Origin: an uncultured bacterium
GTDB lineage: Bacteria > Patescibacteriota > Minisyncoccia > UBA6257 > 2-01-FULL-56-20
Assembly (NCBI GenBank): GCA_963844965.1
Contig: CAWJQC010000008.1
Location: 32,001 to 96,000, forward strand
Length of the DNA: 64,000 nt
Direction: 5' to 3'
Part shown: piece by piece, positions 12,001 through 15,000 of the stretch
Layout: the number at the start of each line of letters is the position of its first letter
How positions within the stretch are numbered: the stretch's first letter is position 1
Program-made: the position numbers

Positions 12001-15000
12001 ACCTTGATTTCTAAAATAATAGTATTTTCTATCAAGAAATCGAAATAATATATGCCCAATTGTTCGCCTTTATAAACAAGCTTCGCCGGCAATTGCTCCT
12101 CAAATACAAAGCCAGCATCCTTAAACTCTCTGGCAATTGCTTTTTGATAAAACTTCTCTTTATGGCCGGGACCAACATTGGTCCACACCGAAAACAACAA
12201 CCCATTGATCTTATAGGTTAAATCGGAATATAAAAGTTTTTCTGCTTTGTTTTCGACTGTATTCATTCCGTATATCCGTATTATTCCGTATTTTGTAGCC
12301 AACTAATCCAGTTGAAATTCTTTGCGCCAGTCGCTGTCATTCTTGAGCGCCGGCTGTTTGGTTTTGTCCAAAATATAATTTCCCATCACAAGATAGTCCA
12401 TATTCGTCCGCATGAAACAGCGGTAAGCGTCTTCCGGAGTGCAGACGATCGGCTCGCCGCGCACGTTGAAAGACGTGTTAATTATGACGCCGCATCCGTA
12501 TTTCTTATCAAATTCGGAAATAAGCGCATGGTAGAGCGGATGTGTTTTCTTGTTCACCGACTGGATGCGCGCCGAATAATCCACATGGGTCACGGCCGGG
12601 ATATCTGAGCGCGCGACGTACAACTTCTGGAGACCGAACCATTTTTTTTGCTCGTCCGACATCTTTTTCTGACGCTCCTTCTTCACGTCGGCGACAAGCA
12701 GCATGTAGGGACTCTCGCGGTCAATTTCAAAATAATCGGAAATCCGCTCGGCGAGCACGGACGGCGCGAACGGGCGGAAACTTTCGCGGAACTTGATCTT
12801 CAAATTCATGATTTCCTGCATCTTCGGCGACCGCGCGTCCCCCAAGATGGAACGGGCGCCCAGTGCCCGCGGCCCGAATTCCATCCGCCCCTCAACCCAG
12901 CCGACAACCTTCTCTCCGGCGATCAAATCCGCCACCCGCTGAACGAGAACGCCGGTGGGCACATACTCGGCGGGGATATTATTCGCGTCAAGATAGGATT
13001 TTAATTCCTCGTTCGTATATTCGGGACCGAGATAGGACCCGTGCTGGGCATCCTCTCCGCGCGCAACGCGCCGCGGCTTACCAAGATAGCCGTACCATAC
13101 TTCAAGCGCCGCTCCCAAGGCGCCGCCCGCGTCGCCCGCCGCCGGCTGAATCCAAATATCTTTGAACAATCCGGAACGCAGCAGTTTACCGTTGGCCACG
13201 CAATTCAGGGCGACGCCGCCGGCAAGGCAAAGGTAATTTTCCCCGGTTTTGCGTTTAACCTCGTGCGCCATCCGCAGCACGATCTCTTCCGTAACGTCCT
13301 GAAGTGAACGGGCGAGATCCATATCGCGCTGGGTAAGAGGCGACTCCGGTTTGCGCGGCTCTCCTCCGAAAAGCTTGTCAAACTTGCTATTAGTCATCGT
13401 GAGCCCGGCCGCATAATTGAAATAGTCCATGTTCATGCGGAACGAGCCGTCATCCTTTAGGTCAACGAGATTATCAAAAATCGCCTTTACGTACTTAGGT
13501 TCGCCGTAAGGCGCGAGACCCATAACTTTATATTCGCCGGAATTCACTTTGAAGCCGGTGTAATAGGTGAATGCCGAATACAGAAGGCCGAGCGAATGGG
13601 GAAATTGAATATCGGCCATAATGCGCAGTTTATTTTCTTCACCAACGCCGTAACTCGCCGTCGCCCACTCCCCCACGCCGTCCATCGTGAGGAATGCCGC
13701 GCGTTCGTAGGGCGACGGGTAAAAAGCGGAGGCGGCGTGCGCTTTGTGGTGCTCCGTGAAAAGTATCGGGCAGCTTGCGCCAAGCTCCTTCGTGATATAC
13801 GTCTTCATCCACAATTTCTGCTTAAGCCAGATCGGCATGGAGGCGATAAAGGACGCGATGCCGCGCGGCGCGTAAGCGAGATATGTTTCAAGCAGCCGCT
13901 CAAATTTAAGGAACGGCTTTTCGTAAAATGCGACGTAATCCAAATCCTTGGCCGTTATGCCTCCGGCCTTAAGACAATAGTCAATCGCGTGCCGCGGAAA
14001 GCGGTCGTCGTGCTTCTTGCGCGAGAAACGTTCCTCCTGAGCGGCGGCGACGATATCGCCGTCTCTCACGAGACACGCGGCGGAGTCATGGTAAAACGCC
14101 GAAATTCCTAAAATGTTCATTTTAGCAAGCGGGCTTGCTATTTTAATATACACGCATAGCGGCTCGTGGGCAATCGCTACCTTATCGCGTCAGTTAGGAT
14201 TTTATTATCAGCCCTTGGCCAGTAGGCAAGGAAAGGATGGGTACGTTTTTTTCTTTGGCGAATTTGTCAAATGCCAGGCGCTGCTCGTCAAATCCATACC
14301 ACCCATAGTCGTCCAGAAGCATAACGGCGCAGTGAGACATTTTCGGCCAGAAAAACTCCGCGGCGGCTATTTCCGGAATCATACAATTCATATCGATATG
14401 CAAGTAAGCGACGCTCCTTATTTTCGACAACGAGCTCAAAATCTCGGGAATGGCCCCTTTGACGATAACCGCGTTGGGAAACTTGGCGAATGACTTTTTA
14501 ACGAACTCGTACATATCGGGATAATGAAACTCCCTTATTCTGTCGTTTTCAGTGAGGTAGCGGGGGTCAAGGCCGTTGTAAGTATCAATCAGGTAGAACT
14601 TTCTTTTTAACCCCCCCCCCGAAATCCAAGTACTCCATAACCACGCGGCTTGTGAATCCCGTCGCCACGCCGCACTCCACAAAGTCGCCCTCAAGATTTA
14701 TTCCGTGTTTCCCCACCCAGCAGGCCACGTAAATCTCCCACTCGCATTCAGTTTTGGGATTCATTGAGTTGCTCTCCTCAATCGCCGTATCAAAAGCCCT
14801 CCTGAACCTCGTGTCTTTCCTGAACTCGCAAACCTTATCTGTAATCAACCCGCCGTCTTCGTAAGTTGGCCGCCACTTCATCAGCTTCAGCCGCCAATTC
14901 CTTAAGACGGAATAAATCGGGACGACAAACGGGTATTTCCTTTTTATTTTGTTTTTAAATTCTTTGCTTATCCGCATGGATGAATCCGAACTAAACCGTT

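What the first reader, a model, noticed from the sequence alone, without database searches (positions are those of the whole stretch)
14194..14977. G10 homopolymer splits a TylF-like sugar O-methyltransferase: phase-variation candidate or sequencing indel
Ten consecutive G (C10 on the plus strand at 14611-14620) lie in the coding sequence exactly at the frame break. Long poly-G tracts in capsule methyltransferase and glycosyltransferase genes are classic slipped-strand switches, for example the heptose-modifying genes of Campylobacter capsule loci. This assembly also carries homopolymer-associated frameshifts in essential genes, so technical error is an equally live explanation.
Basis: partly seen in the sequence, partly recalled or inferred. 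Interest (0 to 1): 0.55.

Follow-up and report, generated by a model that had tools for sequence, protein, structure and literature searches.

The report
Poly-G tract splits sugar methyltransferase gene
A run of ten G's interrupts a sugar O-methyltransferase gene in the surface-glycan gene cluster of an uncultivated ultra-small (CPR) bacterium; it looks like a slippage on/off switch, but this error-prone assembly cannot show whether the gene is really off.

Summary
C10 at 14611-14620 (G10 on the coding strand) sits exactly at the frame break of a TylF/NovP/SpnH-type sugar O-methyltransferase. G9 or G12 restores a 260/261-aa protein that keeps every family-invariant residue.

The tract is real and unusual. 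G/C runs stop at length 5-7 in the rest of the window. The only other long one (G9, in frame) lies 3.3 kb away in a glycosyltransferase of the same glycan cluster. 116 kb of related loci contain no run of 9 or more. Both tracts replace non-Gly residues in variable loops.

The assembly also carries at least 8 other 1-nt indels that break genes, including housekeeping genes that are intact in a close relative. None of these is at a homopolymer. Several sit at GAAGAS hexamers. Three of five differences from an independent Logan contig set fall on GATC sites. I infer from this pattern that the data are nanopore reads, for which a 10-nt run is near the limit of resolution.

So "hypermutable contingency tract" is the best reading (about 0.5). 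"True G9 miscalled as G10" remains a strong rival (about 0.35). Only the reads can decide. If real, this is a new member of a known kind of switch, and I found no earlier report for CPR bacteria.

The parts
14611..14620 (-). Poly-G tract (G10 on the coding strand, C10 on plus). It encodes Gly120-122 plus one extra G. G9 and G12 are in frame; G8, G10 and G11 are out of frame.
14621..14977 (-). 5' part of the methyltransferase gene (residues 1-119). It includes the SAM-binding motif I, VECGVATG (100-107).
14585..14610 (-). Out-of-frame tail read at G10 (VKKKVLPD) and the premature TGA stop (14585-14587). The product is a 130-aa truncated protein.
14194..14610 (-). 3' part of the methyltransferase gene (residues 123-260 of the restored protein), now in the +1 frame. 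It holds D131, D195 and D222-D223-Y224 and has no stops or other defects.
17870..17878 (-). Second long tract, G9, in frame. It lies inside the Glyco_trans_1_2 glycosyltransferase gene (CTG GGG GGG GGC GGC = L-G-G-G-G, where the L003 ortholog has L-G-N-K-I).
17515..18549 (-). Glycosyltransferase gene (344 aa) that carries the G9 tract. It is intact and 63-71% identical to orthologs in syntenic CPR loci.
15066..16544 (-). Wzx-type polysaccharide flippase immediately upstream of the methyltransferase. It contains a G7 run at 15392-15398, in frame.
12303..14120 (-). NodU/CmcH-type carbamoyltransferase immediately downstream on the same strand. It could be subject to polarity when the methyltransferase is OFF (inference only).

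Best explanation
The gene encodes a TylF/NovP/MycF/SpnH-type SAM- and metal-dependent sugar O-methyltransferase. It belongs to a conserved surface-glycan cluster of a CPR/Patescibacteria bacterium. The codons for a variable surface loop (Gly120-122, between helix 108-116 and strand 127-131) have become a run of 9-10 G. Tracts of that length gain or lose a base by slipped-strand mispairing at high frequency. The gene should therefore flip between ON (G9 or G12, full-length enzyme) and OFF (G8, G10 or G11). At G10 the product is 130 aa and lacks strand beta2 onward, including the catalytic and metal-binding Asp residues. The assembly records the OFF length. The neighbouring glycosyltransferase carries a G9 tract in the ON length, so the two tracts could give up to four glycan variants in a population. 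What is shown: the tract, the frame logic, the family membership, the intact state of both halves, and the rarity and clustering of such tracts. What is inferred: that switching actually happens and is used, and that G10 is the true majority length.
For: Frame logic. Family: Pfam TylF across the break. The AlphaFold model (pLDDT 88) has SpnH, NovP, CalS11 and MycF as its best structural neighbours. All 28 columns invariant among 26 homologs are kept, 24 of them downstream of the tract, so the out-of-frame half shows no decay. The tract is lineage-specific. All 25 homologs have F-x-x-L at this site (F-G-S-L in the closest ortholog, L003), whereas the window at G9 has F-G-G-G-L, a one-residue insertion. 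One homolog has a 31-aa insertion at the same site, so the loop tolerates length change. A second tract (G9) lies 3.3 kb away in a glycosyltransferase, again in a variable loop. Rarity: 0.11-0.16 runs of 9 or more are expected in the window against 2 observed, P about 0.01. Related loci L001-L012, 116 kb in all and including ones at 48-50% GC, contain none of 9 or more. GGG is a minority Gly codon. The other 48 homopolymers of 7 nt or more that overlap ORFs cause no frame break (48 of 49 in all), so the assembly's errors are not homopolymer-driven at that length. A second assembly, Logan contig L004 from ERR10755942, also reads G10 and runs through the tract unbroken. Known analogues switch at 1e-4 to 1.6e-3 per division for G8-G11 tracts (PMC8355987).
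Against: No reads are available, so tract-length heterogeneity, the defining property of phase variation, is untested. The assembly has at least 8 other gene-breaking 1-nt indels in 64 kb. Several are in housekeeping genes that are intact in a syntenic relative, so a frameshift in this assembly is an error more often than not. The differences between the window and the Logan contigs concentrate on GATC (3 of 5), and three of six pinpointed indels sit at GAAGAS hexamers. I read this as motif-linked base-calling error of the nanopore type, for which 10-nt runs are borderline. It also means the Logan G10 is not independent short-read support. The statistical enrichment is moderate (P about 0.01), and runs of 7 or more are not enriched at all. 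No same-species strain was found for comparison. I found no report of homopolymer phase variation in CPR bacteria.
Confidence: 0.5

Rival explanations
1. Technical miscall. The true sequence is in frame (G9, less likely G12) and the gene is simply intact. The extra G is a consensus error of an error-prone, probably nanopore, assembly. The tract is an incidental Gly loop and not a switch the organism uses.
For: A single base restores a flawless 260-aa ORF with all family invariants. At least 8 other 1-nt indels break genes in the same 64 kb: RNase J twice, RNase Y, iPGM, an SBP_bac_5 protein, GDP-fucose synthase, a CmcI methyltransferase and a GT9 fusion. All five indels in the four genes that could be compared (RNase J twice, RNase Y, iPGM, SBP_bac_5) lie in genes that are intact in relative L006, and four of the six pinpointed indels are insertions of one base. 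The GATC-centred discordances with the Logan contigs and the indels at GAAGAS fit motif-linked base-calling error. The Logan contig that also reads G10 has a definite 1-nt deletion in a GATC that would break the intact glycosyltransferase. It is therefore not high-accuracy data.
Against: None of the pinpointed errors is at a run longer than 3 nt, and 48 of 49 ORF-overlapping homopolymers of 7 nt or more keep frame, including 7 A8/T8 runs and the G9 tract. Two differently built assemblies agree on G10 and on all six homopolymers of 7 nt or more that they share. This explanation does not account for why two G runs of 9 or more exist only here, in adjacent glycan genes, built from a minority codon and absent from orthologs.
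Confidence: 0.35
2. Real and fixed frameshift. The methyltransferase is a young pseudogene, inactivated at a mutational hotspot, with no adaptive switching.
For: G10 appears in both available assemblies. Glycan-modification genes are dispensable and differ between the syntenic loci.
Against: The 138 codons downstream of the tract contain no stop or further indel and keep 24 of 24 family-invariant residues. A G10 tract reverts readily, so 'fixed' is hard to maintain. The neighbouring G9 tract is in frame.
Confidence: 0.1
3. Recoding. Full-length enzyme is made from the G10 template, either by transcriptional slippage on the G run or by +1 ribosomal frameshifting on GGG codons, so the gene is leaky rather than off.
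For: Homopolymer runs are known sites of polymerase slippage (my own knowledge: poly(A) tracts in endosymbionts and IS elements). A tRNA-Gly can re-pair perfectly in the +1 frame within a G run (inference).
Against: The shift needed is +1, not the common -1. No rare codon or stop follows the run in the zero frame (GUU AAA AAG). The surrounding RNA shows no significant structure (z = -0.81). Orthologs have no tract and no frameshift. Known transcriptional slippage involves A/T runs.
Confidence: 0.04

Closest known systems
Campylobacter jejuni capsule-locus phase-variable genes, especially cj1426c (6-O-methyltransferase with an intragenic poly-G tract) and cj1421c/cj1422c
   Same: An intragenic G tract of 8-11 sits in a sugar O-methyltransferase that adds a non-essential decoration. 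The gene lies inside a heptose-containing surface-polysaccharide cluster, and further tracts occur in neighbouring transferase genes. ON/OFF is set by frame (PMC8355987).
   Different: Switching here is not demonstrated. The organism is an uncultivated CPR bacterium, not an epsilonproteobacterial pathogen. Only two long tracts are visible in 64 kb. Whether cj1426c belongs to the TylF family was not tested.
Neisseria gonorrhoeae pgtA (pilin galactosyltransferase with a poly-G tract)
   Same: A poly-G tract in a glycan-modifying transferase is present in some lineages and absent in orthologs from others (PMC2193922, listed).
   Different: The enzyme class and the glycan differ, and phase variation there was shown experimentally.
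TylF / NovP / MycF / SpnH / CalS11 deoxysugar O-methyltransferases (Pfam PF05711)
   Same: The fold, SAM motif I, the acidic residue after strand beta2 and the D...DDY metal/catalytic residues all match. These are the best structural neighbours.
   Different: Those enzymes act in antibiotic biosynthesis and carry no homopolymer tract. Sequence identity is only 12-18%. This protein has a family-specific N-terminal extension of about 90 aa, shared with its CPR homologs. Its substrate is unknown.
Homopolymer and motif-linked indel errors in long-read metagenome assemblies
   Same: Single-base indels split otherwise conserved genes, and discordances concentrate at short sequence motifs (GATC, GAAGAS).
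   Different: The other errors avoid homopolymers of 7-8 nt. The existence of the tract cannot be an artefact; only its length (plus or minus 1) can.

Membership tests
TylF/NovP/MycF/SpnH-type sugar O-methyltransferase (PF05711) | Significant match to the family profile | tested here: met
   Pfam TylF, E = 8.5e-9, 35.5 bits against a cut-off of 23, over residues 94-245 of the G9-restored protein. Methyltransf_24 also passes. No NCBIfam model matched.
TylF/NovP/MycF/SpnH-type sugar O-methyltransferase (PF05711) | Class I methyltransferase fold closest to solved family members | tested here: met
   The model has pLDDT 88.1 and pTM 0.80. The top Foldseek PDB hits are SpnH 4ce0, NovP 2wk1, CalS11 3tos and MycF 4xvy/4x7u, all with probability 1.00 and TM 0.56-0.78.
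TylF/NovP/MycF/SpnH-type sugar O-methyltransferase (PF05711) | SAM motif I (E/D-x-G-x-x-x-G) and conserved acidic residues (D after beta2; D in the 'lDgD' motif; 'DDY') | tested here: met
   GDFVECGV aligns with GDFAETGV, IDTY with VDSF, IDMN with LDGD, and LDDYG with IDDYF of SpnH. D131, D195, D222, D223 and Y224 are invariant among 26 homologs.
TylF/NovP/MycF/SpnH-type sugar O-methyltransferase (PF05711) | Uninterrupted reading frame | tested here: not met
   At the recorded G10 the ORF stops after 130 aa. It is intact only at G9 or G12.
TylF/NovP/MycF/SpnH-type sugar O-methyltransferase (PF05711) | O-methylation of a sugar substrate | not testable with these tools
   Only the context suggests it: flippase, glycosyltransferases, NDP-sugar enzymes and a carbamoyltransferase in the same cluster.
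Simple-sequence-repeat (homopolymer) phase-variable contingency gene | G/C homopolymer of about 8 or more inside the ORF or promoter | tested here: met
   G10 at 14611-14620, in codons 120-122.
Simple-sequence-repeat (homopolymer) phase-variable contingency gene | A plus or minus 1 change in tract length toggles between a full-length and a truncated product | tested here: met
   In silico: G9 gives 260 aa, G10 gives 130 aa, G11 gives 123 aa, G12 gives 261 aa.
Simple-sequence-repeat (homopolymer) phase-variable contingency gene | Tracts over-represented relative to composition and clustered in surface-structure genes | tested here: met
   Two runs of 9 or more against 0.11-0.16 expected, P about 0.01. 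Both lie in adjacent glycan genes. There are none of 9 or more in 116 kb of related loci. Runs of 7 or more are not enriched.
Simple-sequence-repeat (homopolymer) phase-variable contingency gene | Tract-length polymorphism within a population or between strains | tested here: inconclusive
   Two assemblies both read G10, but they are probably not independent. No same-species sequence turned up in JGI metagenomes or GTDB genomes. No reads are available.
Simple-sequence-repeat (homopolymer) phase-variable contingency gene | Reversible, high-frequency switching of a phenotype | not testable with these tools
   The organism is uncultivated and there is no experimental access.
Programmed recoding site (+1 frameshift or transcriptional slippage) | A shift-prone site with a stimulator (rare or stop codon in the A site, or RNA structure), conserved among orthologs | tested here: not met
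   No significant local RNA structure (z = -0.81). The next zero-frame codons are GUU AAA AAG. Orthologs have no tract and a single frame.

The most novel reading that the evidence does not exclude
Two neighbouring poly-G contingency tracts, one in the methyltransferase (recorded OFF) and one in the glycosyltransferase (recorded ON), let an uncultivated CPR/Patescibacteria bacterium vary its surface glycan combinatorially by slipped-strand mutation. This would be the first case of homopolymer phase variation in the Candidate Phyla Radiation. It could plausibly serve to evade phages or to change recognition by the host cells these episymbionts attach to.
Probability: 0.4. Interest if true: 0.55.

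Novelty: new member of a known kind. Interest (0 to 1): 0.36.

Why it matters
CPR bacteria are tiny and mostly episymbiotic, and their surface is the interface with host cells and phages. So far the ways they are known to diversify that surface are diversity-generating retroelements and repeat-rich proteins. A Campylobacter-style poly-G switch in a conserved CPR glycan cluster would add a cheap, reversible mechanism. It would also give a concrete target, tract-length distributions in metagenomic reads, for studying population heterogeneity in organisms that cannot be cultured. There is a practical lesson too. In long-read MAGs a frameshift at a 10-nt run cannot be read as biology without the reads. 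This window shows how to separate the two error classes, motif-linked indels and homopolymer length errors.

Tried and rejected
1. I looked for the same species elsewhere to compare tract lengths.
- The GTDB genome scan with the restored protein returned only two orthologs at 69% identity, neither with a tract.
- An exact-flank DNA pattern with a variable tract length found nothing in JGI metagenomes.
- The 5.8-billion-protein search found no in-frame copy above 82% identity.

2. The closest hit, P0016 (167 aa), looked like a second split gene. The locus shows an intact ORF that was called from a downstream start.

3. A 90%-cluster relative of the carbamoyltransferase (L005) has a different gene context and no methyltransferase.

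4. I tried to use Logan contigs as independent confirmation.
- Three contigs (7.8 kb) agree with the window on G10 and on all shared homopolymers.
- Their five differences are GATC-centred and include a definite deletion, so they are not high-accuracy evidence.
- Logan contig ends do not coincide with homopolymers.
- Logan holds too few of this genome's genes to test the other frameshift sites.

5. Alignment with relative L006 puts the extra base at about 44310.

6. TrpRS (51633..53272) looked split but is intact with an internal insertion.

7. Recoding found no support: no RNA structure was detected, and weak promoter-like hits in the scan add nothing.

8. A literature search for the run accession found nothing.

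9. I could not establish the sequencing platform directly.
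Full report
**1. Observation**

The plus strand carries exactly ten C at 14611-14620, which is G10 on the minus, coding strand. Two minus-strand ORFs overlap there: 14585..14977 (130 aa) and 14194..14694. Editing only the tract length gives one ORF of 260 aa at G9 and 261 aa at G12. G8, G10 and G11 are out of frame. tblastn with the closest ortholog switches frame at the tract. The restored protein matches Pfam TylF (35.5 bits, cut-off 23) over residues 94-245, across the break. The coordinates and the description in the finding are correct.

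**2. What the gene is**

- The restored protein has more than 4,000 homologs, all carrying TylF/Methyltransf_24 domains. Full-length identity reaches 70%, and the closest ortholog is 80-82% identical over the C-terminal two-thirds.
- An AlphaFold model built on 26 sequences (pLDDT 88, pTM 0.80) finds SpnH, NovP, CalS11 and MycF as its best solved neighbours. All four are sugar O-methyltransferases.
- A profile search of the PDB aligns GDFVECGV, IDTY, IDMN and LDDYG with the corresponding SpnH motifs.
- All 28 columns that are invariant among the 26 homologs are kept in the window's protein. Twenty-four of them lie downstream of the tract. The out-of-frame half shows no decay.
- At G10 the product stops after 130 aa. 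It lacks strand beta2 onward, with D131, D195 and D222/D223, so it cannot be active.

**3. Context**

The gene lies in a long minus-strand glycan cluster. The order is: CmcI-type methyltransferase, GT2, Glyco_trans_1_2 glycosyltransferase, GT2 (on the plus strand), Wzx flippase, the TylF-like methyltransferase, then a NodU/CmcH carbamoyltransferase. Further along are a PDDEXK_3 gene, SxtJ, epimerases, split transketolase, an NTP-transferase/HAD fusion, a PfkB kinase, a GT9 heptosyltransferase fusion, GDP-fucose synthase and a Wzy_C protein.

The same core order recurs in several groundwater CPR contigs (L003, L009-L012). ArgRS relatives are named Patescibacteria, Kaiserbacteria or Paceibacterota. 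The two GTDB orthologs of the methyltransferase are labelled Saccharibacteria. The organism is a CPR bacterium; its finer placement is uncertain.

**4. Is the tract special?**

- C runs number 145, 21, 0, 2, 0, 1 and 1 for lengths 4 to 10. G runs stop at 6.
- The only other long run is C9 at 17870-17878. On the coding strand it is G9, inside the Glyco_trans_1_2 glycosyltransferase 3.3 kb away, and it is in frame.
- An order-3 Markov model expects 0.11 runs of 9 or more. Synonymous-codon resampling that keeps the protein sequences expects 0.16. P(2 or more) is about 0.01 in both. Runs of 7 or more are not enriched.
- GGG is 16% of Gly codons, and only 1 of 80 Gly-Gly pairs is GGG-GGG.
- Seven related, non-redundant loci (116 kb; several at 48-50% GC) contain no G/C run of 9 or more. 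The longest is a C8 in a GT2 gene of L003.
- In the methyltransferase, all 25 homologs have F-x-x-L where the window at G9 has F-G-G-G-L, a one-residue insertion. One homolog has a 31-aa insertion at the same place, so the loop tolerates length change.
- In the glycosyltransferase, GGGG replaces GNKI, GGVG or GSSS in a variable loop, with no length change.

The existence of the tract cannot be an artefact. Only its length, plus or minus 1, can be.

**5. How good is the assembly?**

A syntenic relative, GCA_040960625.1 (locus L006), is about 80% identical at the nucleotide level. It has intact RNase Y, iPGM (516 aa), SBP_bac_5 (492 aa), RNase J (598 aa), TrpRS and IleRS. Against it, the window shows single-base indels that break four of these genes:

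| Gene | Position | Change in the window |
|---|---|---|
| RNase Y | about 43670 | one base missing |
| iPGM | about 44310 | one extra C |
| SBP_bac_5 | about 46825 | one extra T |
| RNase J | 50063 | one extra C |
| RNase J | about 50452 | one extra G |

Other comparisons add three more:

- a deletion in the CmcI methyltransferase at 19977 (TCC[C]TC);
- a split GDP-fucose synthase at about 37800;
- a split GT9/Glyco_trans_1_2 fusion at about 6707-6773, which is a single 790-aa protein in L009.

That makes at least 8 gene-breaking indels besides the G10. Several are in genes no cell could lose, so they are errors. None is at a run longer than 3 nt. The A8 next to the iPGM stop codon is not the indel site. 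Of 49 homopolymers of 7 nt or more that overlap ORFs, only the G10 coincides with a frame break.

Three of the six pinpointed indels lie in or directly beside a GAAGAS/STCTTC hexamer, whereas only 1.5% of the window lies that close to one. I noticed this motif after the fact, so the figure should be discounted.

**6. The second source**

The exact 130-aa G10-specific product is on record from NCBI/ENA (a 156,184-nt contig) and from a Logan assembly of run ERR10755942. Three Logan contigs (L004, L007, L008; 7.8 kb in all) match the window at 99.90-99.95%. They read G10, pass through the tract unbroken, and agree on all six shared homopolymers of 7 nt or more.

Their five differences are not random. 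Three fall on the C of a GATC: two are GATC against GATA, in opposite directions, and one is GATC against GAT-. That last difference is a deletion in the Logan contig that would break the intact glycosyltransferase.

Motif-centred base ambiguity of this kind is what base modification does to nanopore base-calling. That link rests on my own knowledge, and the platform itself could not be checked. I therefore treat both assemblies as derived from error-prone long reads, and I do not count the Logan G10 as independent high-accuracy support.

**7. Weighing**

For a real contingency tract:
- it exists, and it falls in the classic 8-11 G range;
- it has a partner tract in the adjacent glycosyltransferase;
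- it is absent from orthologs and built from a minority codon;
- the 3' half of the gene is undecayed;
- the assembly's errors avoid homopolymers of 7-8 nt;
- two assemblies agree on G10.

For a miscall:
- every other frameshift in this window is an error;
- a 10-nt run is near the limit of what such data resolve;
- one base fewer gives a perfect gene;
- four of the six characterised errors are one-base insertions.

These readings partly overlap. Even if the true majority length is G9, a G9 tract is still hypermutable. I put about 0.5 on "functional slipped-strand switch", about 0.35 on "plain miscall of an ordinary intact gene", about 0.1 on "young fixed pseudogene" and about 0.04 on recoding. 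For recoding, there is no stimulatory structure (z = -0.81), the required shift direction is the unusual +1, and orthologs have no tract.

**8. Comparison with what is known**

The closest analogue is the capsule locus of Campylobacter jejuni. There, intragenic poly-G tracts switch cj1426c (a 6-O-methyltransferase), the MeOPN transferases cj1421c and cj1422c, and other transferases, at 1e-4 to 1.6e-3 per division (PMC8355987). Gonococcal pgtA is a second analogue (PMC2193922).

As an enzyme, the protein passes every testable criterion for the TylF/NovP/MycF/SpnH family except an uninterrupted frame. As a phase-variable gene, it meets the sequence-level criteria, but the defining one, length heterogeneity, could not be tested.

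Searches of 8 million papers found no report linking Saccharibacteria or Patescibacteria to homopolymer or slipped-strand phase variation. The nearest is a 9-mer repeat hypervariable gene in a Gracilibacterium.

**9. Verdict**

The mechanism, if it operates, is of a well-known kind in a new lineage. The ON/OFF state recorded in this assembly is not trustworthy. Interest is moderate to low until the reads are examined.

Noticed in passing
window 43670; 44310; 46825; 50063; 50452; 19977; about 37790-37808; 6707-6773: At least eight single-base indels split RNase Y, iPGM, an SBP_bac_5 protein, RNase J (twice), a CmcI-type methyltransferase, GDP-fucose synthase and a GT9/Glyco_trans_1_2 fusion. 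RNase Y, iPGM, SBP_bac_5 and RNase J are intact in relative L006 (GCA_040960625.1), the CmcI methyltransferase in L003, and the GT9 fusion in L009. None is at a run longer than 3 nt. These are assembly errors, not biology.
   Followed up: yes
window 43663-43671, 44308-44313, 50445-50453; also 10922, 15567, 17670: Three of six pinpointed indels sit in or next to GAAGAS/STCTTC hexamers. Three of five differences between the window and Logan contigs of ERR10755942 fall on the C of GATC (GATC against GATA or GAT-). This suggests methylated motifs (GATC and perhaps GAAGAS) are disturbing base-calling, which would indirectly reveal the organism's methylation motifs. The motif was identified after the fact.
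   Followed up: partly
window 54714-58427 (-): The isoleucyl-tRNA synthetase carries a histidine-phosphatase (His_Phos_1) domain inserted at residues 554-719, in the middle of the catalytic domain. The same architecture is called in relative L006, so it is conserved and not an assembly artefact.
   Followed up: partly
window 52067-53272 (+), residues about 140-190: The tryptophanyl-tRNA synthetase has an insertion of about 48 aa compared with solved TrpRS structures and with the 328-aa TrpRS of relative L006. The upstream 165-aa ORF (51633..52130) has no family match.
   Followed up: partly
window 53293-54420 (-): An rve-family (integrase core) transposase with HTH domains sits between TrpRS and IleRS. 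It is absent from the otherwise syntenic relative L006, so it is a recent IS insertion.
   Followed up: partly
window 17870-17878 (-) and 15392-15398 (-): An in-frame G9 tract lies in the Glyco_trans_1_2 glycosyltransferase, and a G7 run lies in the Wzx flippase. Three of the four G/C runs of 7 or more in the 64-kb window lie within 3.3 kb of the glycan cluster.
   Followed up: yes
window 59894-59900: A G7 run (C7 on plus) lies 4-10 nt upstream of the start of ORF 59480..59890, which has no family match. It is in the ribosome-binding or promoter region and could affect expression.
   Followed up: no
window 11868-14120 (-); L005 10001-12455: The carbamoyltransferase is 89% identical in protein to one in GCA_040960625.1, but there it sits in a different gene neighbourhood and is directly followed by SxtJ. 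In the window a PDDEXK_3 nuclease-family gene is inserted between the two. This suggests cassette exchange between glycan loci.
   Followed up: partly
window 48548-48632 (+) and 48748-49359 (+): The only tRNA in the window, tRNA-Leu(CAG), is followed by an ORF with a weak HNH endonuclease match. The five clustered indel errors (43.6-50.5 kb) surround this region.
   Followed up: no
L003 3293-3300: The closest syntenic locus (a Hainich groundwater contig) has a C8 run inside its GT2 gene, on the coding strand. It is the longest G/C run in 116 kb of related loci and a possible weaker tract in another CPR glycan cluster.
   Followed up: no
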